In this document: in pieces, positions 1 through 20,126 of the stretch
Numbering within the stretch: position 1 is the first letter of the stretch
Layout of the letters: every line of letters starts with the position of its first letter
Made by a program: the position numbers and the translations under genes
The notes under the pieces: model-generated
The model's database searches: none
What the model was told of the DNA's origin: nothing
Seen by the model: only the letters and a program-made list of their open reading frames with translations
Source: a virus
DNA: 24,655 bases
Virus record (IMG/VR): IMGVR_UViG_3300005915_002008
Location: 1-24,655 of that record
Strand: one strand, 5' to 3'

Positions 1-38
1 ATATAAATATTATATAAATATATTTTATAGTAAATAGG

Positions 39-56
39 TTTATAAAGGTATTTAAT
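39..56 (-). promoter_or_regulatory. Partial copy of the recurrent TATA-box promoter motif, pointing out of the window
   Basis: Minus strand reads ATTAAATACCTTTATAAA, matching the AATAAATAYVTTTATAAA part of the other copies. Confidence 0.5.
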
Positions 57-94
57 ATTTTAAAAATTAGACATTCATGTTCTATTTATTCTCA

Positions 95-166
95 AGCCCC
101 TGAACGGACTCGAACCGCTAACAATTTCCTTACAAGGGAAGCACTCTACCATTGAGCTACAAGGGC
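95..166 (-). tRNA. trnT: tRNA-Thr(UGU), intronless, CCA not encoded
   Basis: Reverse complement folds as a cloverleaf: acceptor GCCCTTG/CAGGGGC, D arm GCTC-AATGGTA-GAGT, anticodon arm CTTCC-CTTGTAA-GGAAA (anticodon TGT), T arm AGCGG-TTCGAGT-CCGTT, discriminator T73. Confidence 0.95.
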
Positions 167-180
167 AATAGTGGTATATA

Positions 181-507
181 TTAAATTTGTTTGTTCTTCT
201 TTTCTTCAAATTCTTTAATCAGTTCTTTTCTTTGTTCATCAGTTACCTTATTTCCTTGCATATGTATATACAATTCCATTGAGTTATCTGATTCAATATT
301 AATCTTCTGTGGAATATAAAACAAGATTTGTTTCATTACAATCTTATCCTTATATGTATACTCTTTAATCGTAATTGGCTTAGACTTATATGTTTTATCC
401 CATTGATCTTCAATCTGTTTAGGATCTGCAGTCCTACAATCAAGATAGGATACCATATAACCATCTTCTTTAATCTTATTTGCTATGTCTTGTATATTCT
501 TATTCAT
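181..507 (-). CDS. Hypothetical protein, 108 aa
   Basis: ORF track; AGGAGTGA/AAGGA SD upstream; part of the tightly packed minus-strand gene run. Confidence 0.75.
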   Translation of the reverse strand: MNKNIQDIANKIKEDGYMVSYLDCRTADPKQIEDQWDKTYKSKPITIKEYTYKDKIVMKQILFYIPQKINIESDNSMELYIHMQGNKVTDEQRKELIKEFEEKKNKQI

Positions 508-523
508 TCCTTATCACTCCTAT

Positions 524-667
524 TTAATATTTATTATTATCATTCCAAGCTTTCAATTCTTTTTCTAACTTCTCAAGTCTATCCTTCTGCCAGAGGATGA
601 TCTCCTTTAGAAAGTCCTCGTTATAATTATCCAAATCCATTATATAAAAATGTGGCTTTTCATTCAT
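524..667 (-). CDS. Small hypothetical protein, 47 aa (MNEKPHFYIMDLDNYNEDFLKEIILWQKDRLEKLEKELKAWNDNNKY), coiled-coil-like
   Basis: Translated by hand; fills the gap between flanking genes, starting 5 nt after the upstream stop. Confidence 0.6.
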   Translation of the reverse strand: MNEKPHFYIMDLDNYNEDFLKEIILWQKDRLEKLEKELKAWNDNNKY

Positions 668-672
668 ATTAG

Positions 673-1401
673 TCATTCTTCATCAATCTCCAGAAGTTCT
701 AAAACTTTATATAATATTTTATATTTAGTTCTAGCTTCAAATGAAGAAATACCTTTTTTAACTTCATCTTTATCTATTTCTGCTGATGCATGTTCTATAG
801 CAACTAAATCCATTTCTAATCTTATCTTATTAACTAACTTATCCCTCTTCACATATCCTGCTTTCTTATACTCTGACTCTTCCATGTCATTATATGCTTC
901 TGTTAATGCTTTTTTATCAATAATATCTGAATTTTTATCAGGTATAATATCACTAGGTTTGCATTCTATACCTATCATTAATATTTTATTTTGTATTTTT
1001 AATAACCTTCTAAGATTCAATTCAAGTGCTTCCTCGTCGTCCTTGTTGATGAATTGATGGTCTAAATATACTATTTTATCTTCATCAATATTATTATAAT
1101 CACCTAATCTCTCCCAACTACAACCACCATCTGTAATTAATTCTATTCGCTCTAAATACTCACTAGCAATTTCAAACTTCTTCTCTTTATTCATAGACTC
1201 GTCTAGCACTTTATCGGCTTCTTGAACATCAAGAATAGTTATGCCTCTATTCTTCGCACTTCTTGTGCCTATATCAGCCTTGTCCAATCCAACACTTGAC
1301 TCTGATTCATTCATCTTATCAATAAGAGTTATTTGTTCTCTAAACTCTTTTGTAGTTCCTATATGTAAATTACCCTTTTTATCTTTAATCATCTCACTCA
1401 T
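673..1401 (-). CDS. Hypothetical acidic protein, 242 aa
   Basis: ORF track; GAAGGTG SD before ATG; no motif recognised. Confidence 0.8.
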   Translation of the reverse strand: MSEMIKDKKGNLHIGTTKEFREQITLIDKMNESESSVGLDKADIGTRSAKNRGITILDVQEADKVLDESMNKEKKFEIASEYLERIELITDGGCSWERLGDYNNIDEDKIVYLDHQFINKDDEEALELNLRRLLKIQNKILMIGIECKPSDIIPDKNSDIIDKKALTEAYNDMEESEYKKAGYVKRDKLVNKIRLEMDLVAIEHASAEIDKDEVKKGISSFEARTKYKILYKVLELLEIDEE

Positions 1402-1415
1402 ATTTTACACCTTCT

Positions 1416-1568
1416 TTATATTTTTATATAGTATACTTTATAACAATCAAGGCATTCTATACAAATGTGTATTCTACCACCCTTGATATCTAATGCATCA
1501 CCATATTTAATATTGCTTGAATTACAAAAGTTGCACTTTAAACTTATAATACAATCATTATCTTCCAT
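1416..1568 (-). CDS. Small Zn-ribbon-like protein, 50 aa (MEDNDCIISLKCNFCNSSNIKYGDALDIKGGRIHICIECLDCYKVYYIKI)
   Basis: Hand translation; two CxxC pairs (CNFC, CLDC); AGGTGA SD 4 nt before ATG. Confidence 0.7.
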   Translation of the reverse strand: MEDNDCIISLKCNFCNSSNIKYGDALDIKGGRIHICIECLDCYKVYYIKI

Positions 1569-1572
1569 AATC

Positions 1573-1734
1573 TCACCTTATATTTTTTACCATTGATATA
1601 AAAAACTTAGCAATAGTATCTGCGTGTTTATCAATTAACTCCTTTCTATGAGGCATATAATTTTGTTCTAATAATTGTGCACATTCTATTGCTTTAGATA
1701 ATTCCGAATACTCATCTTCTTTTTTAATATCCAT
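1573..1734 (-). CDS. Small hypothetical protein, 53 aa (MDIKKEDEYSELSKAIECAQLLEQNYMPHRKELIDKHADTIAKFFISMVKNIR)
   Basis: Hand translation; GAGGTG SD; its TGA stop lies inside the SD of the next gene. Confidence 0.65.
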   Translation of the reverse strand: MDIKKEDEYSELSKAIECAQLLEQNYMPHRKELIDKHADTIAKFFISMVKNIR

Positions 1735-1753
1735 AACACACCTCATTTCTTCC

Positions 1754-1870
1754 TTATATCAATACATTAATTGCAATAACTGCAGTAATAAATACTGCTA
1801 TAAATAAAGTTATATATAATGATTTATACATTGCTAATTCATTTATTAATTCATCTGTAAATTTATCCAT
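1754..1870 (-). CDS. Small single-pass membrane protein, 38 aa (MDKFTDELINELAMYKSLYITLFIAVFITAVIAINVLI)
   Basis: Hand translation; hydrophobic C-terminal segment; AGTGA SD-like motif; fills the gap. Confidence 0.55.
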   Translation of the reverse strand: MDKFTDELINELAMYKSLYITLFIAVFITAVIAINVLI

Positions 1871-1875
1871 ACCAA

Positions 1876-2031
1876 TCACTTCTTTATTTGATACACATCT
1901 ACCATGTTAGGTATTACTATACAATCTTTAAAGCCCTTCTTTTTAAGTTCTTTTCTGACCTCACTACAAACACCAGCACCTGCATTGTCAATACCAATTA
2001 TTGTAATCTTACTTTTCTTTTTCCAAAACAT
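1876..2031 (-). CDS. Small basic hypothetical protein, 51 aa (MFWKKKSKITIIGIDNAGAGVCSEVRKELKKKGFKDCIVIPNMVDVYQIKK)
   Basis: Hand translation; GGAGTGA SD; beta-alpha-beta-like pattern. Confidence 0.65.
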   Translation of the reverse strand: MFWKKKSKITIIGIDNAGAGVCSEVRKELKKKGFKDCIVIPNMVDVYQIKK

Positions 2032-2036
2032 ATTAA

Positions 2037-2213
2037 TCACTCCTTTGTATAATATTTAAGTATAAACTTTTTCAACCCATATTTTAATAAAAAACAATTT
2101 TCTTTAAATTTAATATCATATTCATTATTAACATCAGATTTAATACATTTATCTATACTATATATTGTATCATTAATCTTTGCAAGTATATCACAATATT
2201 CAATATCACTCAT
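2037..2213 (-). CDS. Small hypothetical protein, about 58 aa
   Basis: ORF track 2037..2222. The GTG at 2222 lies inside the GGAGTGA SD, so the ATG at 2213 is the likelier start. Confidence 0.65.
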   Translation of the reverse strand: MSDIEYCDILAKINDTIYSIDKCIKSDVNNEYDIKFKENCFLLKYGLKKFILKYYTKE

Positions 2214-2228
2214 ATCAATCACTCCTTT

Positions 2229-2251
2229 GTTAGCTTAACTATTTAACCAAC
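2229..2251. repeat. Junction hairpin copy 1 (GTTAGCTTAACTATTTAACCAAC)
   Basis: Imperfect palindrome over the stop codon of the 2239..2382 gene; homologous to copies at 2749, 3134 and 3301. Confidence 0.8.
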
Positions 2252-2382
2252 TTATTCTTTTTAATAAACACATCTCTGCATTTGTTGCTACAAAAACTTC
2301 CTATCGGAGTATCTTTATTGCCATCAGAAACTATAATTTTGCCACAGCTATTACAAAATTCAATTCTGCATCTCTCACACAT
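2239..2382 (-). CDS. Small Cys-rich metal-binding protein, 47 aa (MCERCRIEFCNSCGKIIVSDGNKDTPIGSFCSNKCRDVFIKKNKLVK), TRASH-like CxxC...FCSxxC
   Basis: Hand translation; CERC, CNSC and FCSNKC motifs. Confidence 0.6.
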   Translation of the reverse strand: MCERCRIEFCNSCGKIIVSDGNKDTPIGSFCSNKCRDVFIKKNKLVK

Positions 2383-2396
2383 AATTCCACTTAATC

Positions 2397-2579
2397 CTAC
2401 TTTTTATTAGTGTTAATCTCTACCCAATCTTTACTACTTTTCCTTCCAAAGATTTTTATAACTGGGAGATTTTCATTTAACTTAAATTCATTATCACCAA
2501 TTTTAATTAAAGGGGACATATAGCAAAGTTCATAATACTCCTTCCTAGTCATTGTTACTAATCCTAATAATTTTATCAT
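2397..2579 (-). CDS. Small hypothetical protein, 60 aa
   Basis: ORF track; ATG sits 1 nt after the upstream stop codon. Confidence 0.65.
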   Translation of the reverse strand: MIKLLGLVTMTRKEYYELCYMSPLIKIGDNEFKLNENLPVIKIFGRKSSKDWVEINTNKK

Positions 2580-2580
2580 A

Positions 2581-2709
2581 TCAATCTACCTTTATAATTT
2601 TTGATTTACCACATTTATTGCATACACAAAATGGTACACAAATAGGAGGACTTATACTATAAAACTTATTAGGATAATATATCTTCCACTTGTGATTACA
2701 AAATAACAT
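2581..2709 (-). CDS. Small Zn-binding protein, about 42 aa (MLFCNHKWKIYYPNKFYSISPPICVPFCVCNKCGKSKIIKVD)
   Basis: Hand translation; CxHxW...CxKCG pattern common in viral mini-proteins. The start could be up to about 11 codons further upstream. Confidence 0.6.
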   Translation of the reverse strand: MLFCNHKWKIYYPNKFYSISPPICVPFCVCNKCGKSKIIKVD

Positions 2710-2748
2710 TCTAATTAATCTTAATCTACCAATATCAATCACTCTTTT

Positions 2749-2771
2749 GTCGACTTAACTATTATACCGAC
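2749..2771. repeat. Junction hairpin copy 2 (GTCGACTTAACTATTATACCGAC)
   Basis: Covers the stop of 2755..3114; carries a compensatory C-G pair relative to copies 1 and 3. Confidence 0.75.
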
Positions 2772-3114
2772 TTATTCTTTTCTTTAAATAAATTAATATT
2801 ATAGTTATTATATCAGCATCCATATCTGAAGTATAAATTAATGTTTTATATTTGTTATAAATTTTAAAATAATTTGTACTATCATTACGCATCCTATTAG
2901 GTTCACTTCCATTTGCATTCCACCAACTACAATAATAAAACTTAGCATAGTAATTATGTTTTTTTAAATATTTTTGTAATTTATATAATGTATTAATTAT
3001 TAAATCATTAGTAACAGATATTTTATCATAATCTATATTTATATTATTTAAATTATGATTTAATTCTAATTTTATTTTATCTCCAATTATATCTTCTTTT
3101 AAACTATAATCCAT
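2755..3114 (-). CDS. Hypothetical protein, 119 aa
   Basis: ORF track; GAGGGA SD-like sequence upstream. Confidence 0.75.
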   Translation of the reverse strand: MDYSLKEDIIGDKIKLELNHNLNNINIDYDKISVTNDLIINTLYKLQKYLKKHNYYAKFYYCSWWNANGSEPNRMRNDSTNYFKIYNKYKTLIYTSDMDADIITIILIYLKKRISRYNS

Positions 3115-3133
3115 ACCATTCCCTCTTCATTTT

Positions 3134-3156
3134 GTTGGCTTAACTATTTAACCAAC
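3134..3156. repeat. Junction hairpin copy 3 (GTTGGCTTAACTATTTAACCAAC)
   Basis: 22/23 identical to copy 1; starts 3 nt downstream of the stop of the 3160..3276 ORF. Confidence 0.8.
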
Positions 3157-3159
3157 TTT

Positions 3160-3276
3160 TTATTTTTCAAACTCTTCTTCTCTTTTATATATCTCTTTTT
3201 TATAATAATTATATCTATTATCTTGCTTTCTTTTTACCTTTTTAGGAACTTTACCTAATTTGAGCCATAATTCCAC
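3160..3276 (-). CDS. Small basic hypothetical protein, 38 aa, GTG start (MELWLKLGKVPKKVKRKQDNRYNYYKKEIYKREEEFEK)
   Basis: Hand translation; GAGGGA upstream of GTG; fills the interval between hairpin copies 3 and 4. Confidence 0.5.
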   Translation of the reverse strand: MELWLKLGKVPKKVKRKQDNRYNYYKKEIYKREEEFEK

Positions 3277-3300
3277 TTAATCCCTCTCCCTCTTCATTTG

Positions 3301-3326
3301 GTAGGCTTAAACAGTGTTAAGCCTAC
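3301..3326. repeat. Junction hairpin copy 4, perfect 10-bp arms (GTAGGCTTAA-ACAGTG-TTAAGCCTAC)
   Basis: Arms are exact reverse complements with a 6-nt loop; overlaps the TAG stop of 3323..3601. Confidence 0.85.
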
Positions 3327-3601
3327 TTTTCATTCTTTTTAATTAATTCTTTTAATTCATTAAAATGTTTAGGACAAGCACAAATATAAATACACACACC
3401 TTTAAATCTTAATCCTGTAAGTAATCCTTTTTGTTGTATGTCATAACAATAATCACAACCAACATATTTTCTTTCTTTTTCATTCTTTACTTCTTCCTTA
3501 GTAGGAAATGTCTTAGTAGGAAATGTATATCCATAATTTTCTGATACCCCTTTATCATAGTTACTAAATAAAGATCCATATCCACCATGACTATTTTCCA
3601 T
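3323..3601 (-). CDS. Hypothetical Cys-rich protein, 92 aa (CxxC...CxCxxH)
   Basis: ORF track; AGGTGATGG SD; an internal 2x15-bp tandem at 3497..3526 encodes TFPTK-TFPTK. Confidence 0.75.
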   Translation of the reverse strand: MENSHGGYGSLFSNYDKGVSENYGYTFPTKTFPTKEEVKNEKERKYVGCDYCYDIQQKGLLTGLRFKGVCIYICACPKHFNELKELIKKNEK

Positions 3602-3605
3602 ACCA

Positions 3606-3788
3606 TCACCTCTTTAACTTCTTACGTTTGGTGTCATAGTTATTCACAACCATCATGTCCAGAACAAATCCACCAACCATGAATCCGCTCAGAAAGACCC
3701 AGTCGCTTATGATTATGCAGTAGACTATGATAAACAACGCTAGTACACCGAATATAATGTTCAACTCTTTTGATATACCTATTTTCAT
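3606..3788 (-). CDS. Small membrane protein with two predicted TM helices, 60 aa
   Basis: ORF track; two hydrophobic stretches and a basic C-terminus; AGGTGAGG SD. Confidence 0.7.
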   Translation of the reverse strand: MKIGISKELNIIFGVLALFIIVYCIIISDWVFLSGFMVGGFVLDMMVVNNYDTKRKKLKR

Positions 3789-3796
3789 ATCCTCAC

Positions 3797-4858
3797 CTAT
3801 TCAGTATCCTCGAAGTACACCTTTTGGTAATGTTTCCAGGCATCACCAGTTGTATTATTATTTATTATATTATATTTTTTAAAATTTATACAATATATAT
3901 CACCATAATTATTATGATATCTAATATTAATAATCATTTTTATACCTTTATTATTAAGTTTATTGTGTATATTCCAATCATCATTATCTGTGTACCTGAA
4001 GAAATCACCGACCTTTAAGTCCTTGAACTCACAATCACGTAAGACTGCCTTTTTATTAGAATCTTTTAAATCTGCAATCCATTCATTAGAACTTGTGTCA
4101 ATTTGCAATCCATTCTTATTAGTATACATTATTTGTTTTTTATTATATGGATTGATTAAACTTGTTTCACTAAGCCCATAAAACAACTCACTCACGTCCA
4201 GCTCATCCTTAACCGTGTCCTCGAAGGCTTTATAACTCTCTTCAGAAATAAAAACCTCATTACCATTCTCTAAAACTATCTTCTTACTCATACTTAATTT
4301 CTCCTTTTTTATATTATTAAATTTCACAAAACATTCTGGAAAAAATTTATGATAAAAATCCAATATTCCTGGATTTGGACCTATACAAAATTCTTTAACC
4401 AATGGGTGTTCATCTCCAAGAATATCCTGCCAAGTCACTTCTTTATTTTTATGATTATCAAAGAATACAGAATCGCTATATGTATAATATATTCTAGTGT
4501 TCATGATATAAAAACACAAATCATCATGATCAAAATTTAATACTCTTTTATCATCATAACACCATTCATATCCACATCTGAACAACTTCTCCTGGACTGC
4601 CATGCTGATCTCTTTGCTCGGGATCTTGATCTTTATATCCTCATAAATCTTAAAGGGTAACATAGGCTTTGATTCTTTTGCTAACTCTAACTGATCATCA
4701 AACCAACACCAATCAGCATCCTCATTTAATTTATAAGACCCATCAATATTCACATTTTTAATTTCATACATTCTATCATAATATTTTTCAATATTACATA
4801 TGTCATAATCATCACAGCCTTTTATAACCCTAACTCTATCACCAATCTTAAATCTCAT
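3797..4858 (-). CDS. Multi-module hypothetical protein, 353 aa, with an N-terminal SH3/KOW-like (FKIGDRVRV) domain
   Basis: ORF track; GAAGGTGG SD; FKIGDRVRV and LKVGDFFRY motifs. Confidence 0.8.
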   Translation of the reverse strand: MRFKIGDRVRVIKGCDDYDICNIEKYYDRMYEIKNVNIDGSYKLNEDADWCWFDDQLELAKESKPMLPFKIYEDIKIKIPSKEISMAVQEKLFRCGYEWCYDDKRVLNFDHDDLCFYIMNTRIYYTYSDSVFFDNHKNKEVTWQDILGDEHPLVKEFCIGPNPGILDFYHKFFPECFVKFNNIKKEKLSMSKKIVLENGNEVFISEESYKAFEDTVKDELDVSELFYGLSETSLINPYNKKQIMYTNKNGLQIDTSSNEWIADLKDSNKKAVLRDCEFKDLKVGDFFRYTDNDDWNIHNKLNNKGIKMIINIRYHNNYGDIYCINFKKYNIINNNTTGDAWKHYQKVYFEDTE

Positions 4859-5036
4859 CTTTTCCCACCTTCACTAACGCTTTATAAATTAACTTATTAT
4901 TAATATACCCAATCAAATCAGCATCATTCATTTTCTTAATCTTCCCACACTCAGCAATCTCAGCCTGAGTCAAAACTAATGTAGGAATAGTCTCTACAGA
5001 TTTTTGAATATTATAATTATCTTTATCCTTCTTCAT
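4848..5036 (-). CDS. Small hypothetical protein, 62 aa
   Basis: ORF track; overlaps the start of the next gene (translational coupling). Confidence 0.65.
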   Translation of the reverse strand: MKKDKDNYNIQKSVETIPTLVLTQAEIAECGKIKKMNDADLIGYINNKLIYKALVKVGKDEI

Positions 5037-5038
5037 CT

Positions 5039-5224
5039 CTATCTCTCTCTGAGCTCGACACTCTGGTAATTAAATACAGAATTTAAATAAATAGTACTAC
5101 TTTTAATTGTATGTTCTTCATCAAAAAATACATAATAAATCTTTTCATTCTCAACCTTAGTTATTAAACATATATTTTTATTATCTTTATTATTTTCATA
5201 ATTCCAATCATTCTTATCCACCAT
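5039..5224 (-). CDS. Small hypothetical protein, 61 aa; first gene after the promoter at 5254..5286
   Basis: ORF track; lies directly downstream of a conserved promoter copy. Confidence 0.65.
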   Translation of the reverse strand: MVDKNDWNYENNKDNKNICLITKVENEKIYYVFFDEEHTIKSSTIYLNSVFNYQSVELRER

Positions 5225-5253
5225 ACTTAATCATTTCCTAATGTCATATATAA

Positions 5254-5286
5254 TTATATACCAAAACATTTATAAACATATTTATT
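5254..5286 (-). promoter_or_regulatory. Recurrent TATA-box promoter (AATAAATATGTTTATAAATGTTTTGGTATATAA)
   Basis: 33/33 identical to the plus-strand copy at 13159..13191. Confidence 0.8.
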
Positions 5287-5319
5287 TATGTAAATAATAT
5301 TCATTATCAATAATTGATA

Positions 5320-5646
5320 TTATCTATTTAAGTATATAATCAACCCGACTATTATGATCGAAAGCAATGTAATTAGTATGTACAGGTTCTGGAAATTATA
5401 ACTCACGATCTCGTTCAGGTTATGCTGAAGATTGAAGATCTCGGAGTTAGCATCACAGGTCGATGTAGTCCAACCATGAACAGCTAATCCATTAAGCTCA
5501 TAACTTATTTCTGCATCACAACCATAACTCTCAAATATAGCCTTATGAATATTCTCATGCGAGTCCAGATGTATCATACTCACAACCATGTACACAACAA
5601 TGATCGCACCTATATAAAAAATTATACTCTTAGTATACTCGTTCAT
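5320..5646 (-). CDS. Membrane protein with HExxH motif (possible zincin/M50-like metallopeptidase), about 108 aa
   Basis: N- and C-terminal hydrophobic helices, HENIH motif followed by YG. The track start (5664) lies inside the promoter, so ATG 5646 is preferred. Confidence 0.55.
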   Translation of the reverse strand: MNEYTKSIIFYIGAIIVVYMVVSMIHLDSHENIHKAIFESYGCDAEISYELNGLAVHGWTTSTCDANSEIFNLQHNLNEIVSYNFQNLYILITLLSIIIVGLIIYLNR

Positions 5647-5658
5647 ATATATATTACG

Positions 5659-5686
5659 TACCAAAACATTTATAAAGGTATTTATT
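5659..5686 (-). promoter_or_regulatory. Recurrent TATA-box promoter (AATAAATACCTTTATAAATGTTTTGGTA)
   Basis: Direct match to the consensus; the TATA box ends about 22 nt before ATG 5646, so the mRNA is probably leaderless. Confidence 0.75.
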
Positions 5687-5722
5687 TACATAAATGTTTT
5701 ATATAAAGGATCTCAAGCATTT

Positions 5723-5830
5723 ATGCTACGCATGTATGCTACGCATGTATGCTACGCATGTATGCTATGCATGTATGCTATGCATGTATGCTACGCATGT
5801 ATGCTACGCATATATGCTATGCATGTATGC
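5723..5830. repeat. Tandem array of 8.3 x 13-bp units (ATGCTAYGCATRT)
   Basis: Units read directly at 5723, 5736, 5749, 5762, 5775, 5788, 5801 and 5814, plus a partial ATGC. Confidence 0.97.
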
Positions 5831-5863
5831 ACCCCTATAAAGATCTTAATCCAGGGGGTACAG

Positions 5864-5891
5864 CACCCCTATAAAGATCTTTATAGGGGTG
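5864..5891. repeat. Perfect 28-bp palindrome CACCCCTATAAAGA|TCTTTATAGGGGTG
   Basis: Exact self-complementarity with no loop; GCACCCCTATAAAGATCTT is also present at 5829..5847. Confidence 0.97.
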
Positions 5892-6008
5892 TAATATGCA
5901 TAAATATGTATAAATATATACATATATAAAGATCTTAAACAAATAAGTGAAATATAACACACCTACACCTAATTGGGTATAATAGATGTAAAAATATAAG
6001 AGTGTCTA

Positions 6009-6086
6009 AAAACATAACACACCCATACCAAAATATGTGATCAATAGGAACTGACAATATAAATCAGTATGGGTGTGTTATGTTTT
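6009..6086. repeat. Perfect 20-bp inverted repeat (AAAACATAACACACCCATAC) with a 38-bp spacer
   Basis: 6009..6028 is the reverse complement of 6067..6086; a degenerate direct copy (16/19) is at 5951..5969. Confidence 0.92.
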
Positions 6087-6164
6087 ATATGGGGTAACTA
6101 TAACCTGTAAATCTCAGGTACTTAGTAACTATGTACTGAGTAATATGTACTAAGTACTAAGCAA

Positions 6165-6839
6165 TTATTTAGTATTGAATTTGTCCATGAACTCGTCCAT
6201 TGACACGGTCTCGCTGTTTACATTGATGTTCACATTCTTCGATCCTTCAATTATACGATCCAGCTTCTCGATTGCGTCGATCGTGAGTTTACTCAGATCC
6301 ACCTTCAGTCTCTCAATTGGGTTCAGTACGAAACTAGAATTCTCGTTCTTGTCATAAACCCTCTGGAGCATGCCGTGCTTGTGACTGTATATATTAGCTC
6401 GGATCAGATCGGACTTACTCATTAATAAATTATTCACAATCTCATAAACTCGAGGATCATCCAGGTCATACTTATTATTGAATCGTATCACTGTTTTATT
6501 CAACTCATCCTCTTGGTATTTGCATTTAATATGATTCTCTGTGCAGTAATCAGCCGCGTTATGAAGTGCCTTGCTTTTTATTTTATTCCAGACATTTAAA
6601 AATAAAGGTTCATTATCATCATAAATCTCTTTCACATCATTATCCTTTAATGATTCCTCATATGCCTCATGCTTGAATCGTAAAATTAAATCATGTTGAC
6701 AATCACAATTTAATAAATGTTGATAATCACAATTTGGTAATAATGAATCTACTAAATTATTCTGAAATTGTGTCTTTAAATTTATACTCTCTTTCTTTAA
6801 TTCTATATTAATATTATCATTATTAATTACATTACTCAA
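6165..6839 (-). CDS. Hypothetical protein, 224 aa; C-terminal half resembles a small terminase subunit (P27-like pattern)
   Basis: TTG start with GGTGA SD and its own promoter; helix-HG-hairpin-LNP-helix pattern and an NINVN tail. The TerS resemblance is by eye and weak; confidence refers to that call. Confidence 0.4.
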   Translation of the reverse strand: MSNVINNDNINIELKKESINLKTQFQNNLVDSLLPNCDYQHLLNCDCQHDLILRFKHEAYEESLKDNDVKEIYDDNEPLFLNVWNKIKSKALHNAADYCTENHIKCKYQEDELNKTVIRFNNKYDLDDPRVYEIVNNLLMSKSDLIRANIYSHKHGMLQRVYDKNENSSFVLNPIERLKVDLSKLTIDAIEKLDRIIEGSKNVNINVNSETVSMDEFMDKFNTK

Positions 6840-6872
6840 AAATTATCACCAAATATAGATAATATATGAATA

Positions 6873-6896
6873 AAAATATTTATAAATATATTTATT
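6873..6896 (-). promoter_or_regulatory. Recurrent TATA-box promoter variant (AATAAATATATTTATAAATATTTT) for the 224-aa gene
   Basis: Matches the upstream and TATA parts of the consensus; lacks the GG. Confidence 0.55.
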
Positions 6897-7292
6897 TTTT
6901 TAGGCTTATATAATATATAAAATATATTATACTCATTATCTCTTTTCTCATTTCACAAAAAAAAAAAAGAAAAAGTATATCAAAAGCTTATATTAGATTT
7001 ATTCTATTTATTTCATTTATTCCTTAATAATAAATAGAATAAATAAAATAAATTTATTTTTATTTATTTATTATTATTATTATAATAATAAATAAGGTTA
7101 ATATATGTATTAATTATACAAAATTAATACAAATTTATGTAGATAAATATGTTTAAACTTAGTGTTTATAATACATTTATGTATTAATTTACACTTATAA
7201 ATATGACCATTAATTATTTATAATTAACTAATTTCCCAACTTTTTCATCAAATTAATTTAATAACCCTATAAAATTAACCTATTTTCAGAAA

Positions 7293-7401: not shown

Positions 7402-7517
7402 TATAATTATTCATGGTTACTAAATTAATTTAGGTTTTTCATAGATATTACTAAAGTATTATTAATATAATAACAATAAAACCCCAACAATTTCTATTAT
7501 AATTTATAATTTATTAT

Positions 7518-7547
7518 AATAACCTTTATAAACATTTTGGTATATAA
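7518..7547 (+). promoter_or_regulatory. Recurrent TATA-box promoter (AATAACCTTTATAAACATTTTGGTATATAA)
   Basis: Consensus match upstream of the GGAGG SD and ATG 7589. Confidence 0.8.
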
Positions 7548-7588
7548 TTATATTAAATAATTCAATAATATTATCAGGAGGAATTAAT

Positions 7589-13149: not shown

Positions 13150-13158
13150 ATTTACATT

Positions 13159-13191
13159 AATAAATATGTTTATAAATGTTTTGGTATATAA
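13159..13191 (+). promoter_or_regulatory. Recurrent TATA-box promoter (AATAAATATGTTTATAAATGTTTTGGTATATAA)
   Basis: Exact 33-bp match to the minus-strand copy at 5254..5286. Confidence 0.8.
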
Positions 13192-13226
13192 ATATGTATA
13201 TAAACAACTAAATTTATGGTGAAATT

Positions 13227-13560: not shown

Positions 13561-14310
13561 ATGACAACAAATAAAACAAATCTGAATGGGGATAAAGTCG
13601 AGATTCTTGAGGCGAATGAGAACATAGAAATTTTCAAGTCTGAAGAAGTCAAAGCTGAATCTAATTCTAATTCTAAAGAACAAGGTTCTGAAGCAGATGA
13701 AATAAGTAAAATAGACTCTGTGGATAAAATAACTTTTAATGATGAAACAGAACCTAAATCAGATCCTATGGAGCTTCAAGACTTTGCAGATTCTATTAAT
13801 TATGATATAGAATTTAATGAAGATGAAGAGCTTGAAGAAGACAAGGAAACTAAAGAGAAATATACAAAAAAGATATATACAATAGATAGAGTTGAAGTTG
13901 GTCAACCTAAGCAATTTGATAATGAAGGAAATAAAATTGCACCATTAATTAGTGATAATGGAGCTTTATTCTATGAATCGAAATTGATTGTGTTCTATAA
14001 GGATTCTACTTATAAATCTGTGATACCAAAAATTAAGTGGTATGTGAATAAAGATATTACAACTGGAAAAGAAACTCTAACACCTTGGTTTGCAATTAAA
14101 GAAGATTCAACAATTGAGGAACAATTTATTTCGGTACTTTCTAAAGTGTATTATAAATTTTGTAAATATATGAATTTAGAATCTGGTAAGGTTTCAATGA
14201 AAGACTTTATTACTAAGCTTCCTGGATTAAAGGTTAATCTTTATAATACAAAAGGTAAGTTTAAAGGAACTACATGGAATAGAATTGATATTGTGAAATT
14301 TGTAAAATAA
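13561..14310 (+). CDS. Putative single-stranded DNA-binding protein (OB-fold, DUF669-like end) with an acidic N-terminal region, 249 aa
   Basis: GGAGG SD; C-terminal L.G.KV.L....G.F.G...N.I...F pattern; located between primase and nuclease-helicase genes. Function is inferred. Confidence 0.4.
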   Translation: MTTNKTNLNGDKVEILEANENIEIFKSEEVKAESNSNSKEQGSEADEISKIDSVDKITFNDETEPKSDPMELQDFADSINYDIEFNEDEELEEDKETKEKYTKKIYTIDRVEVGQPKQFDNEGNKIAPLISDNGALFYESKLIVFYKDSTYKSVIPKIKWYVNKDITTGKETLTPWFAIKEDSTIEEQFISVLSKVYYKFCKYMNLESGKVSMKDFITKLPGLKVNLYNTKGKFKGTTWNRIDIVKFVK

Positions 14311-14322
14311 GTTTTACAATTA

Positions 14323-14337
14323 TTTTTTTTCTTTTTT
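14323..14337 (+). terminator. Candidate archaeal oligo(T) terminator (T8-C-T6)
   Basis: T tract 12 nt after the stop of 13561..14310; T tracts are common in this AT-rich DNA. Confidence 0.35.
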
Positions 14338-14366: not shown

Positions 14367-16586
14367 ATGAGTTTGAAGTTTAATTTATCCGCGAGTAGCG
14401 TGTCGAAATATAAGGAATCACAATTAGACTTTTATTATACATATATAGAAAAGTCTAAACCTGATACTCAAATTCTATCAGTTTATGGTAATGCTGGGAA
14501 TATTGTTCATTCTTCCTTAGAGAATTATATTACTTTATTAAAGAATAAGGATGTAACTAAGGGCTATGCAAAGACAGAAGTCGAGAAGTATTTTAGTACT
14601 CAATGGTTTGAAAAGAATATATCACAAATGCAGACGAAAAATAATAAACCCCTTGATATAAATAAATATTTTAATGGATTAAGGAATGCGTTTGTATATA
14701 TAAATAAAAATATTAATATAAGTAATAACTTAATTCCGGAACAGAAGTTCATTTTCCCAATAGTTAATACTAAAGATGCAGTTATAAATTTCAAGGGATT
14801 CATAGATCTTGTGGATGAAACTACTGATATAATTTACGACTGGAAGACAAACTCATCTATTCAGAACTTCAACCTACATGCTAGAATTTATTGCTATGCA
14901 TATTGGAAAATGTATAATAGAATTCCAAAGGCTATATATTATTATTGTAATGTAGATAAGCCAAAAATATATTATTTCACAAAAGATGAAGTTCTAGAAA
15001 CTGAAACTGAATTGAATGATCTATGCAAAGAAATCATAGGTAAAGGACATGACATTTCTAAGTACGATCTAGGTAACTATAATCATATATTCAATGTACA
15101 TTTACAGAAGTGCAAAAGAGAGGCATTGAATAGACAGGACTCTGATGTGATACAATACAATATTGAAAAGAATAATATAATATTCAGAAATTTAAACAAC
15201 AATTTAAAGAATATAATTGATAAAAAATTTAGTTATTATATAAACGGTCATGAGTTTAGTGACTTATTTAAAAAGAGAATATGGGATGGCAAAACTCATT
15301 TATTTAGTATAAAAAGTAACAAATTACCTATTGGTTTATTTACGATTTTCAAAAAATTACTTAATCAATATAATAAATATTCAGAAAGGGACTATAAATT
15401 AGAACTAAAGTATGATTTAAGAAATAAAGATATAATGTCTAATCAATTCGAGACTAAGTTTAAGGACAATAAAGATATAGAATTAAGATATTACCAAAAT
15501 GATGCAATAAAAAGTGCGATAGAAAACAAGATAGGAATTATATATGGCGGAACTGGTTGTGGTAAGTCTATCATTTCAGCAGAGATTATTAAGAATATAA
15601 ATAAAAGAAGTTTATATATTATAAATAGAATAGAACTTGTTGATCAAACTGCAGAGGTCTTTGAGGAATATTTAGGAATAGAAATTGGGAAAATGTCTGA
15701 GGGGAATCTGGATATAAATAAACAGGTCACAATCGCATCAATTCAAACGGTTAATAGCCTCTTAAAACAGAGCTCTGAGAATTCGAAATTACTAAAAAAG
15801 TATTTATACAATACAAACATCTGTATTTTTGATGAATGCCAGAACGTGAAAGACGATGGGTGCTATAAATTGTTATCGAATAACTTAACTAATTGTGAGT
15901 ATTTAATAGGCATGACAGGAAGTCCATTTAGGAACGATGAGCACACACTTAAAATGAAGGCATTAGTCGGTGATGTTATTTATAGTAAAACTACAAAAGA
16001 TCTAGTATCCGAGAATTACTTAGTTCCGACTAAGGTTTATTTTTTAGAGTACGATACAATTTTTGATAGAAATTATCAAAGCTACTCTGACGCATACACA
16101 GATCTCATTGTAGGAAACATTGAGAGAAATAATTTAATTAAAGACATTGTAAGTAAGTTCGAGAATAAAAAGATCTTAATTATCACAAAATTAATAAAGC
16201 ATGGAAAGTTACTCGAAGAACTTATCCCAGATAGCTTTTTAATCACAAGCCAAACAAAAAAGGATATACGAAAGCAAAAGTTTAAGGACTTCAAGGACAA
16301 TAAATTTAATATTCTTATCGGATCGGCTCAGATATTCTCGACCGGAATTGATATTCCCGATCTTGATATAATTCTAAACAGTAGTGGTCATCGTTCAGAT
16401 GTTTTATCAACTCAAATTATAGGACGAGTTATGCGTAAGTCTAAAAATAAAGAATTTGGATACTACATAGACTTTATAGACGACACGAGTGTATATTTCA
16501 GGCAAGCAACTAAGCAACGAATTCAGATTCTAACAGAATTCGGGCACGAAATTTTAAAAATTAATGATATAAAGGACATACAATAA
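14367..16586 (+). CDS. Fusion protein: N-terminal PD-(D/E)XK (RecB/Cas4-like) nuclease plus C-terminal UvsW-like SF2 helicase, 739 aa
   Basis: LSASSV..Y, GNIVHSSLE, FKGFIDLVD, IYDWKT and IY..AY motifs; UvsW-type WDGK..LF (15282); LRYYQ, GTGCGKS, DECQ, TGSP, TGIDIPDL, QIIGRVMR. Confidence 0.88.
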   Translation: MSLKFNLSASSVSKYKESQLDFYYTYIEKSKPDTQILSVYGNAGNIVHSSLENYITLLKNKDVTKGYAKTEVEKYFSTQWFEKNISQMQTKNNKPLDINKYFNGLRNAFVYINKNINISNNLIPEQKFIFPIVNTKDAVINFKGFIDLVDETTDIIYDWKTNSSIQNFNLHARIYCYAYWKMYNRIPKAIYYYCNVDKPKIYYFTKDEVLETETELNDLCKEIIGKGHDISKYDLGNYNHIFNVHLQKCKREALNRQDSDVIQYNIEKNNIIFRNLNNNLKNIIDKKFSYYINGHEFSDLFKKRIWDGKTHLFSIKSNKLPIGLFTIFKKLLNQYNKYSERDYKLELKYDLRNKDIMSNQFETKFKDNKDIELRYYQNDAIKSAIENKIGIIYGGTGCGKSIISAEIIKNINKRSLYIINRIELVDQTAEVFEEYLGIEIGKMSEGNLDINKQVTIASIQTVNSLLKQSSENSKLLKKYLYNTNICIFDECQNVKDDGCYKLLSNNLTNCEYLIGMTGSPFRNDEHTLKMKALVGDVIYSKTTKDLVSENYLVPTKVYFLEYDTIFDRNYQSYSDAYTDLIVGNIERNNLIKDIVSKFENKKILIITKLIKHGKLLEELIPDSFLITSQTKKDIRKQKFKDFKDNKFNILIGSAQIFSTGIDIPDLDIILNSSGHRSDVLSTQIIGRVMRKSKNKEFGYYIDFIDDTSVYFRQATKQRIQILTEFGHEILKINDIKDIQ

Positions 16587-16614
16587 ATACGTTTATAAAT
16601 ATTTTGGTATATAA
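16582..16614 (+). promoter_or_regulatory. Recurrent TATA-box promoter (AATAAATACGTTTATAAATATTTTGGTATATAA)
   Basis: Consensus match overlapping the helicase stop codon, 21 nt before ATG 16636. Confidence 0.8.
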
Positions 16615-16635
16615 ATATATAAAATGTGAATACAT

Positions 16636-20013: not shown

Positions 20014-20044
20014 AATATACAATAAATATATATATAAATATACA

Positions 20045-20076
20045 AATAAATACCTTTATAAATATATTGGTATATA
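20045..20076 (+). promoter_or_regulatory. Recurrent TATA-box promoter (AATAAATACCTTTATAAATATATTGGTATATA)
   Basis: Consensus match heading the post-polA operon. Confidence 0.75.
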
Positions 20077-20126
20077 TATTATATATATAATAGCCTGAAT
20101 AGGCAAAGGAGAAAATGTGAAAAAAT

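What the first reader, a model, noticed from the sequence alone, without database searches (positions are those of the whole stretch)
2229..3326. Array of mini-gene cassettes, each closed by a covarying 23-26-bp hairpin element
Seen: four related palindromes at gene 3' ends (2229, 2749, 3134, 3301), consensus GT-N-R-R-CTTAA-(CTAT/ACAGTG)-TWWA-(G)-CC-N-AC, each preceded by TTT(G) and followed by TT, and each over or next to a stop codon just upstream of the next SD. The third stem pair changes in a compensated way (T-A in copies 1 and 3, C-G in copy 2, A-T in copy 4), so symmetry is conserved rather than sequence. Copies 1-3 carry a single bulged base; copy 4 has perfect 10-bp arms with a 6-nt centre (TAA-N6-TTA). 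Known: integron attC sites are structure-recognised hairpins with extrahelical bases between promoterless ORFs; Xer/dif sites have 11-6-11 TAA-N6-TTA symmetry; T4-type PeSL stem-loops mediate gene shuffling. This element fits none fully. Inference: a possibly undescribed cassette-shuffling or mRNA-processing signal in an archaeal virus accessory region.
Basis: partly seen in the sequence, partly recalled or inferred. Interest (0 to 1): 0.75.

Follow-up and report, generated by a model that had tools for sequence, protein, structure and literature searches.

The report
Recycled stem-loop gene-junction modules
Four related short hairpin sequences sit between tiny genes of an uncultured AT-rich tailed virus as parts of re-used gene-junction modules. 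They are real but strictly local, and look like known phage "regulatory cassette" junctions rather than a new recombination system.

Summary
The four palindromes are real (2229-2251, 2749-2771, 3134-3156, 3301-3326). They lie on the coding (minus) strand between a stop codon and the next Shine-Dalgarno, inside one operon of ORFan mini-genes.

The family is strictly local. A covariance model finds only these four in about 46 kb of this virus. It finds none in the nearest relative (64% portal identity) or in seven more distant ones. A metagenome pattern scan gave only chance hits.

The repeated unit is larger than the hairpin. Junctions are assembled from a small vocabulary: an A-rich tail, the hairpin, and three SD/start blocks. 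Two junctions use the same blocks without a hairpin, and one of these equals the copy-4 junction minus exactly 38 nt. Upstream ORFs enter the element in different frames. This mosaic points to past recombination or duplication among junctions, as with T4 PeSL cassettes, but here without a promoter.

No recombinase was found. There are no strain breakpoints: 24 contigs from 10 or more samples are colinear. Covariation rests on one base pair, and copies 1-2 fold weakly.

Best reading: recycled junction ("linker") modules whose stem-loop acts, if at all, in the polycistronic mRNA. It is not attC or dif. Interest is modest.

The parts
2229..2251 (-). Hairpin copy 1 (type 1). It holds the stop codon of the 47-aa ORF in its loop and is followed by SD/start block A and the ATG at 2213.
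   Evidence: 42.8 bits. Folds only on the sense strand: RNA -4.9 vs 0 kcal/mol.
2749..2771 (-). Hairpin copy 2 (type 1, degenerate inner stem, pair 3 = C-G). The stop of the 119-aa ORF lies in its 3' arm, and block A follows.
   Evidence: -3.3 kcal/mol; 41.6 bits
3134..3156 (-). Hairpin copy 3 (type 1, 96% identical to copy 1). It lies 3 nt after the stop of the 38-aa ORF and is followed by block B and the ATG of the 119-aa ORF.
   Evidence: -7.2 kcal/mol; 45.2 bits
3301..3326 (-). Hairpin copy 4 (type 2: perfect 10-bp arms, 6-nt loop, pair 3 = A-U). The stop of the 92-aa ORF lies in its 5' arm, and blocks B then C follow.
   Evidence: -13.3 kcal/mol; 35.5 bits
2212..2230 (-). SD/start block A (19 nt, contains GGAGTGAT), copy after hairpin 1.
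2732..2750 (-). SD/start block A, copy after hairpin 2.
2030..2048 (-). SD/start block A, third copy, used WITHOUT a hairpin. The upstream 61-aa ORF reads through it. 2049-2071 may be a decayed hairpin copy, but this is uncertain.
3120..3132 (-). Block B (13 nt, purine-rich SD block), copy after hairpin 3.
3287..3299 (-). Block B, copy after hairpin 4.
3266..3283 (-). Block C (18 nt SD/start block), copy downstream of hairpin 4 and block B.
2380..2404 (-). Hairpin-less junction between the 60-aa and 47-aa ORFs. It joins the 9-nt 5' block of copy 4 directly to block C, so it equals the copy-4 junction minus 38 nt (rest of hairpin plus block B) between GG/GG.
2250..2259 (-). Shared A-rich 5' block (10 nt) upstream of and overlapping hairpin 1. 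It is coding, read in a different frame from its copy at 2770-2779.
2770..2779 (-). Shared A-rich 5' block, copy at hairpin 2.
5247..5287 (-). Extended BRE/TATA-like promoter heading the whole minus-strand mini-gene block. No other copy lies on this strand until about position 54.

Best explanation
The hairpins are one component of recycled gene-junction ('linker') modules. Each module consists of an A-rich stretch, a short stem-loop rich in stop codons, and one of three SD/start blocks.

These modules punctuate a single polycistronic block of ORFan mini-genes. They were spread from junction to junction by duplication or general homologous or microhomology-mediated recombination. That is the same logic as T4 PeSL cassettes, but here without a promoter. 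This part is shown by the sequence mosaic.

The stem-loop itself most likely acts on the sense mRNA as an intercistronic structure. It would sit at the place where the upstream ribosome terminates and just before the next ribosome-binding site. There it could protect upstream segments from 3' exonucleolytic decay and/or uncouple or tune translation of the next cistron. This part is inferred, not shown.

It is not a target of a dedicated site-specific recombinase.
For: 1. Position. All four copies lie between a stop codon and the next SD on the sense strand of a block with one promoter (5247-5287) and no further promoter match on that strand.

2. Nucleotide-level conservation. The upstream ORFs end inside the element in different frames and at different places: loop, 3' arm, 5' arm, or 3 nt before the hairpin.

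3. Mosaic.
- Cores of copies 1 and 3 are 96% identical but carry different 3' blocks (A versus B).
- Block A occurs with two hairpins and once without.
- Block B occurs with both hairpin types.
- Block C and the 9-nt 5' block of copy 4 recur, directly joined, at 2380-2404. This is a 38-nt in/del of 'hairpin plus block B'.

4. Sense-strand bias. Both outer-stem mismatches are G.U on the sense RNA and A.C on the other strand. Copy 1 folds only on the sense strand, and 92.5% of cells pair on the sense strand.

5. The flanking genes are unrelated ORFans, as in the hyperplastic regions where PeSLs sit (PMC2839356, PMC4122927).

6. The hairpins do not match the virus's own promoter model.
Against: - There are only four copies, all within 1.1 kb, and none in the other roughly 45 kb of the virus or in relatives. 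Any function is not general.
- Copies 1 and 2 are weak hairpins, with z-scores not different from shuffles.
- The other 9-10 junctions of the same operon work without hairpins.
- Covariation rests on one pair and is not significant. In quasi-palindromes, compensated changes can also arise by templated mutation without selection (established knowledge, not tested here).
- There are no RNA data.
- There are no diverged close strains, so recombination at these modules is inferred from internal mosaicism only.
Confidence: 0.45

Rival explanations
1. The hairpin is a functionless passenger. A quasi-palindrome happened to lie in an ancestral junction and was copied with it. Its symmetry is kept by recent ancestry and by hairpin-templated mutation, not by selection.
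For: - The family is tiny and local.
- Hairpin-less derivatives of the same junctions exist and apparently work (2380-2404 and 2030-2048).
- Copy 2 has a partly broken stem, and copies 1-2 fold no better than shuffles.
- The covariation is not significant.
- The element is absent from the nearest relative.
Against: - Three different Watson-Crick pairs occur at stem position 3, while flanks stay near-identical.
- Stem symmetry is kept across two hairpin types with unrelated loops.
- All mismatches are wobble-compatible on the sense strand.
Confidence: 0.25
2. The element is a DNA-level palindromic binding site (operator or roadblock) for a dimeric virus or host protein that regulates the mini-gene block.
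For: - Both arms keep sequence, not only complementarity (GTNGG..TTAA in all copies).
- For the analogous ESAS inverted repeats, DNA-binding was judged more likely than RNA pairing (PMC3203893).
Against: - Half-site spacing differs by 3 bp between types (23 vs 26 bp), and copy 2 has a degenerate inner half.
- The sites sit inside an operon away from the promoter.
- No candidate DNA-binding protein was identified.
Confidence: 0.14
3. The elements are site-specific recombination or transposition sites (attC-, dif- or REP/RAYT-like hairpins) that move mini-gene cassettes.
For: - The layout is cassette-like, with sites at ORF 3' ends.
- There is a 38-nt in/del containing the hairpin between GG repeats.
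- Copy 4 has 10-6-10 symmetry and starts with GTAG.
Against: - No PF00589 or PF01797 match is in the window, and none appears among the Pfam hits of genes on the 49.5-kb contig.
- The sites are far shorter than attC, and two geometries occur.
- Four sites lie within 1.1 kb, yet 24 contigs from 10 or more samples are colinear.
- The element does not occur in any other genomic context in IMG/VR or JGI metagenomes.
Confidence: 0.07
4. The elements are terminators for antisense (plus-strand) transcription. On the + strand each is a hairpin followed by a T-rich run.
For: - flags copy 4 as terminator-like on the + strand.
- Copy 3 is followed by T5AT5.
- The A-rich 5' block is conserved irrespective of reading frame.
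Against: - No plus-strand promoter copy reads into the block.
- Downstream genes beyond window position 1 continue in the same orientation.
- Copy 1 does not fold on the + strand.
- The T-richness is largely explained by the A-rich sense strand (41% A).
Confidence: 0.07

Closest known systems
PeSL (promoter-early stem-loop) cassettes of T4-type phages (Arbiol et al. 2010, PMC2839356; Comeau et al. 2014, PMC4122927)
   Same: Both are short repeated intergenic modules containing a stem-loop. Both cluster in regions of small ORFan genes. In both, recombination between copies explains mosaic junctions and in/dels.
   Different: A PeSL is a sigma70-like promoter plus a terminating stem-loop. Here no promoter is attached and no U-tract follows on the sense strand. 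The module carries an SD/start block instead. There are 4 copies rather than dozens. No pair of close strains is available to show exchange.
Conserved TATA-like plus inverted-repeat motif before ORFs of haloarchaeal tailed virus HGTV-1 (reviewed in PMC3950731; sequences read in KC292026)
   Same: Both are in a tailed virus with archaeal-type promoters. Both are repeated intergenic motifs containing an inverted repeat before small ORFs, and the HGTV-1 motif was proposed to be PeSL-like.
   Different: The HGTV-1 motif is about 60 nt. It has two TATA-like boxes flanking a GC-rich 8-3-8 repeat, lies 70-100 nt upstream of nearly every ORF of one arm, and each gene has its own spacer of 110-180 nt. 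The present hairpins are AT-rich, have no promoter, lie 3-8 nt from the SD inside an operon, and number four. The counterpart of the HGTV-1 motif in this virus is rather its 43-nt extended promoter.
Start-associated sequences and extended SAS (SAS/ESAS) of Cluster K mycobacteriophages (Pope et al. 2011, PMC3203893)
   Same: Both have a conserved SD-containing block a few nt upstream of the start codons of a subset of non-structural genes. In about half of the cases an imperfect inverted repeat with variable spacer lies immediately upstream. The upstream stop codon sometimes lies inside the element. The function is unknown in both.
   Different: There is no sequence similarity. The ESAS arms are 17 bp, and their departures do not preserve pairing. 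SAS/ESAS are spread over half a genome and conserved across subclusters, whereas here the family is local and absent from relatives.
Bacterial REP elements (own knowledge: 20-40-nt imperfect palindromes after stop codons inside operons, 5' GTAG, mobilised by RAYT; they stabilise upstream mRNA)
   Same: Both are short imperfect palindromes placed right after stop codons within operons, and the proposed mRNA-level role is the same. Copy 4 begins with GTAG.
   Different: REPs are chromosomal, occur in hundreds of copies, and are associated with a Y1 transposase. No PF01797 match was found here, and there are four copies in a virus.
Integron attC sites and Xer/dif sites
   Same: Both are palindromic sites at ORF 3' ends (attC). 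Copy 4 has 10-6-10 symmetry (dif-like).
   Different: See the membership test. Size, box structure, recombinase and behaviour in the population do not fit.

Membership tests
Integron attC | An integron integrase (tyrosine recombinase) acts on the sites | tested here: not met
   There is no PF00589 match in the window at E<=0.1, while the controls were positive. No integrase appears among the Pfam hits of genes on the 49.5-kb contig. The genome is still incomplete.
Integron attC | A 57-141-bp site with R''-L''/L'-R' boxes and spaced extrahelical bases (own knowledge) | tested here: not met
   The elements are 23-26 bp with a single helix. One possible bulge in copies 1-3 disappears as a U.G pair on RNA, and copy 4 has none.
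Integron attC | Cassette content varies between strains exactly at the sites | tested here: inconclusive
   24 contigs from 10 or more samples are colinear, but all are >=99.8% identical. The nearest distinct relative has an unrelated mini-gene block without the element.
Xer/dif | About 28 bp as 11-6-11, with one site per replicon | tested here: not met
   Only copy 4 is 10-6-10. Copies 1-3 are 9-4-10. There are four sites within 1.1 kb.
T4-type PeSL | A promoter is joined to the stem-loop | tested here: not met
   The promoter model R2 (six copies, 37-42 bits) gives no hit at any hairpin even at E<=10. Generic sigma70-like hits are not above shuffles.
T4-type PeSL | The stem-loop is an effective terminator (hairpin plus U-tract on the sense strand) | tested here: not met
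   The sense strand has A-rich sequence on both sides. A T-tract occurs only on the antisense strand.
T4-type PeSL | Multiple copies among ORFan genes, with recombination between copies creating in/dels and replacements | tested here: inconclusive
   There are four copies among ORFans, and the internal mosaic and the 38-nt in/del fit this. No strain pair shows an exchange.
HGTV-1 TATA plus inverted-repeat motif | TATA-like boxes flank the repeat, the motif lies 70-100 nt upstream of most ORFs of a genome arm | tested here: not met
   The intergenic sequences of KC292026 were read. The present hairpins lack the promoter and abut the SD.
Cluster K SAS/ESAS | A conserved SD-containing block 3-8 nt before the starts of a gene subset, with an imperfect inverted repeat just upstream in about half | tested here: met
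   Blocks A, B and C occur at six junctions, four of them with a hairpin. This is a match in architecture only.
Cluster K SAS/ESAS | The 13-bp SAS consensus and 17-bp repeat consensus of the family (PMC3203893) | tested here: not met
   The sequences are unrelated (versus the consensus quoted).
REP/RAYT | An associated Y1 (RAYT) transposase and a high copy number | tested here: not met
   There is no PF01797 match, and there are four copies in about 46 kb.
Intrinsic terminator | A GC-rich hairpin followed by a U-run on the transcribed (sense) strand | tested here: not met
   Only the + (antisense) strand fits, and copy 4 is flagged there. A true hairpin+T8 terminator-like site exists elsewhere, at 14298-14335.

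The most novel reading that the evidence does not exclude
The roughly 38-nt unit 'hairpin plus SD block' is itself a minute insertable and deletable punctuation element of an archaeal tailed virus. In this reading it is copied into gene junctions at short GG/AGG microhomologies. It would bring stop codons in several frames and a fresh ribosome-binding site, so that any captured ORF becomes a working cistron. That would be a promoter-less counterpart of PeSL cassettes operating at the level of translation units.
Probability: 0.12. Interest if true: 0.6.

Novelty: new variant of a known kind. Interest (0 to 1): 0.3.

Why it matters
If the modules really mediate gene capture, they would extend the PeSL idea in two ways: from bacteria to a virus with archaeal-type promoters, and from transcription units to translation units. 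The PeSL idea is that short regulatory repeats act as recombination handles that build ORFan regions. As it stands, the case is a small local example. It helps explain how this virus's mini-gene block was assembled, but it has no demonstrated activity and no wider distribution.

Tried and rejected
- Exact 16-mer core scan of IMG/VR gave five chance matches in unrelated GC-richer contigs.
- A degenerate 23-mer scan of JGI metagenomes gave nine hits, none with the flanks and only one with full complementarity, as expected by chance.
- Relatives were sought through several proteins. The 353-aa, 957-aa and 119-aa proteins found only the virus itself, and the PolA and 353-aa searches of IMG/VR found nothing.
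- A full HMMER search with the 602-aa portal-like protein gave relatives at 64% identity and at <=39%. Their contigs (L021-L025, L031-L037) hold no element.
- A provirus and host search in GTDB genomes with the portal alignment found nothing, so the host domain remains unshown.
- Rfam matched only the tRNA-Thr at 95-166.
- Promoter inside the hairpin: rejected with model R2. The copy-2 TATAAT and the sigma70-like hits are at background level.
- Programmed -1 frameshifting at the A-rich run before the hairpins was considered. The -1 frame stops within two codons at copy 1, so it was rejected by reading the sequence.
- K-turn or L7Ae-type motif, CRISPR-like array, and rolling-circle nick site: no matching features in the sequence.
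- A 425-nt contig with a 93-aa variant of the 119-aa protein looked like a possible rearranged junction. It is the same locus with two indel errors.
- Atlas look-ups of the 119-aa and 353-aa proteins gave nothing usable.

Full report
WHAT IS THERE

The window is a whole IMG/VR record: 24.6 kb, 27% GC, flagged as a fragment. Genes from 181 to 5224 are all on the minus strand. They are tiny ORFs of 38-119 aa plus a few larger ones, with no Pfam or PHROG family and no homologues outside this virus.

In the sense orientation each follows or contains the stop codon of the upstream ORF and precedes an SD/start block by 3-8 nt. The stop lies in the loop (copy 1), in the 3' arm (copy 2), 3 nt upstream (copy 3) or in the 5' arm (copy 4).

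HOW GOOD ARE THE HAIRPINS

On the sense RNA the free energies are -4.9, -3.3, -7.2 and -13.3 kcal/mol. Only copies 3 and 4 differ clearly from shuffled sequence. With DNA parameters the picture is the same, and copy 1 folds only on the sense strand.

On a four-row alignment, 92.5% of cells pair. One pair (the third) shows U-A, C-G and A-U, and three pairs vary by wobble. 38 of 500 shuffles reach the observed covariation score. The 'bulged base' of copies 1-3 can equally be a U.G pair in a 7-bp stem. So symmetry is real, but statistical support for selected covariation is weak.

HOW WIDE IS THE FAMILY

A covariance model of the four copies scores them at 35-45 bits. The next best hit anywhere is 17 bits, inside a coding region. 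The model was run on three sets of sequence:
- The window plus same-virus contigs that extend it to about 46 kb (scans).
- The nearest relative found, at 64% identity in a portal-like protein (scans).
- Seven IMG/VR relatives at 33-39% identity.

Exact and degenerate pattern scans of IMG/VR and of JGI metagenomes returned only chance matches. The family is therefore four copies within 1.1 kb of one virus.

THE REPEATED UNIT IS THE JUNCTION, NOT JUST THE HAIRPIN

Copies 1 and 2 share about 10 nt of A-rich sequence upstream and a 19-nt SD/start block (A) downstream. Copies 3 and 4 share a 13-nt block (B). Copy 4 is further followed by an 18-nt block (C).

The shared upstream stretch is coding and is read in different frames in copies 1 and 2. 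The conservation is therefore at nucleotide level.

The blocks assort independently:
- The cores of copies 1 and 3 are 96% identical but carry A and B respectively.
- Block A recurs at 2030-2048 with no hairpin.
- The junction at 2380-2404 is the 9-nt 5' block of copy 4 joined directly to block C. That is the copy-4 junction lacking exactly 38 nt (rest of hairpin plus block B) between GG dinucleotides.

Such a combinatorial vocabulary between unrelated genes is best explained by duplication and recombination among junctions.

The loop region of copies 1 and 3 closes all three reading frames. About 9% of random 23-mers of this composition do so, so this is suggestive only.

TRANSCRIPTIONAL CONTEXT

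The virus has a strongly conserved 43-nt promoter-like motif: an A-rich stretch, then TTTATAAA, then 6 nt, then GGTATATAA. Six copies score 37-42 bits with a sequence model. One of them, at 5247-5287 on the minus strand, heads the mini-gene block. No further match lies on that strand until about position 54, and none lies at the hairpins. The relative L025 has the same kind of motif.

The layout looks like an archaeal BRE/TATA promoter. The host was not established here, because the provirus search was negative.

Generic sigma70-like hits are at shuffle level. The only terminator-like call at a hairpin is on the antisense strand.

TESTS OF THE RECOMBINATION-SITE IDEA

No tyrosine recombinase or Y1 transposase domain is in the window. 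None appears among the Pfam hits of genes along the 49.5-kb contig.

Nine contigs from eight samples are identical to the window over positions 1-7000, apart from one 13-bp tandem-repeat unit and one SNP. All 24 contigs read for the gene downstream of copy 1 have the same gene spacing. A short contig that looked like a variant is the same locus with indel errors.

This argues against frequent site-specific deletion between four sites only 140-500 bp apart. Consensus assemblies would hide rare events, however, and the strains are too similar to reveal evolutionary breakpoints.

COMPARISON WITH KNOWN SYSTEMS

- PeSL cassettes of T4-type phages are the closest in logic. They are repeated stem-loop modules in ORFan regions that mediate modular shuffling (PMC2839356, PMC4122927). 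They are defined by an attached early promoter and a terminating stem-loop, and both were tested and not met here.
- The HGTV-1 motif was proposed to be PeSL-like in an archaeal tailed virus (PMC3950731). I read it directly in KC292026. It is a promoter motif with an internal GC-rich inverted repeat, far from the start codons, and unlike the present elements.
- The SAS/ESAS elements of Cluster K mycobacteriophages (PMC3203893) share the architecture of an 'SD block with an inverted repeat just upstream in a subset of non-structural genes'. They share no sequence and not the local distribution. Their function is also unknown.
- REP elements share the position after stop codons and the proposed mRNA role (own knowledge). 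They do not share copy number, host or transposase.
- The attC and dif families fail on size, geometry, enzyme and population behaviour.

VERDICT

- What is shown: a small, local family of imperfect palindromes embedded in recycled junction modules of one operon.
- What is inferred: the modules arose and were re-assorted by recombination (fairly well supported). The stem-loop works on the mRNA as an intercistronic structure (plausible, about 40%), or is a passenger, or is a protein site.
- Classification: a promoter-less variant of a known kind of phage junction cassette, of modest interest.

Noticed in passing
window 5722-5734: One 13-bp unit of the tandem array at about 5723-5830 is absent in three of nine same-virus contigs (L008, L012, L013). 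This is the only length polymorphism seen in positions 1-7000.
   Followed up: partly
window 5247-5287(-), 5646-5687(-), 7514-7554, 13158-13198, 16581-16621, 20044-20085: Six near-identical copies of a 43-nt BRE/TATA-like promoter motif (37-42 bits). None occurs in the roughly 21 kb structural module downstream (L018, L038). A similar motif is present in the 64%-portal relative L025. HGTV-1's intergenic motif also ends in GGTATATAAA.
   Followed up: partly
L018:4542-7346 (beyond window position 1): A 934-aa gene carries an intein with a LAGLIDADG endonuclease. The relative L025 has a 617-aa intein-less gene at the same place. The structural module also holds at least three free-standing NUMOD3/DUF559 endonuclease genes.
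   Followed up: no
L038:13291-14200 versus L039:13288-14632: Two otherwise identical strains differ in gene content after a 295-aa gene of the tail region (47/140/62-aa genes versus 159/139/43-aa genes). This is a real replacement breakpoint, and it is not associated with the hairpin family.
   Followed up: no
window 14298-14335: An 8-bp hairpin with the stop codon of the 249-aa gene in its loop is followed by T8CT6. This is a classical terminator-like signal on the plus-strand block, unrelated in sequence to the four elements.
   Followed up: no
L025 (SRR32456859 contig, 37.3 kb): The nearest relative has its mini-gene block co-oriented with the replication genes and divergent from the structural module. 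This is the opposite of the arrangement in the window. Its genes are tightly packed or overlapping, with no junction repeats.
   Followed up: partly
window 2049-2071: The sequence just upstream of the hairpin-less block A shares the outer letters and the central TTAAATA with copy 1 but is no longer palindromic, and it is now coding. It may be a decayed fifth copy.
   Followed up: partly
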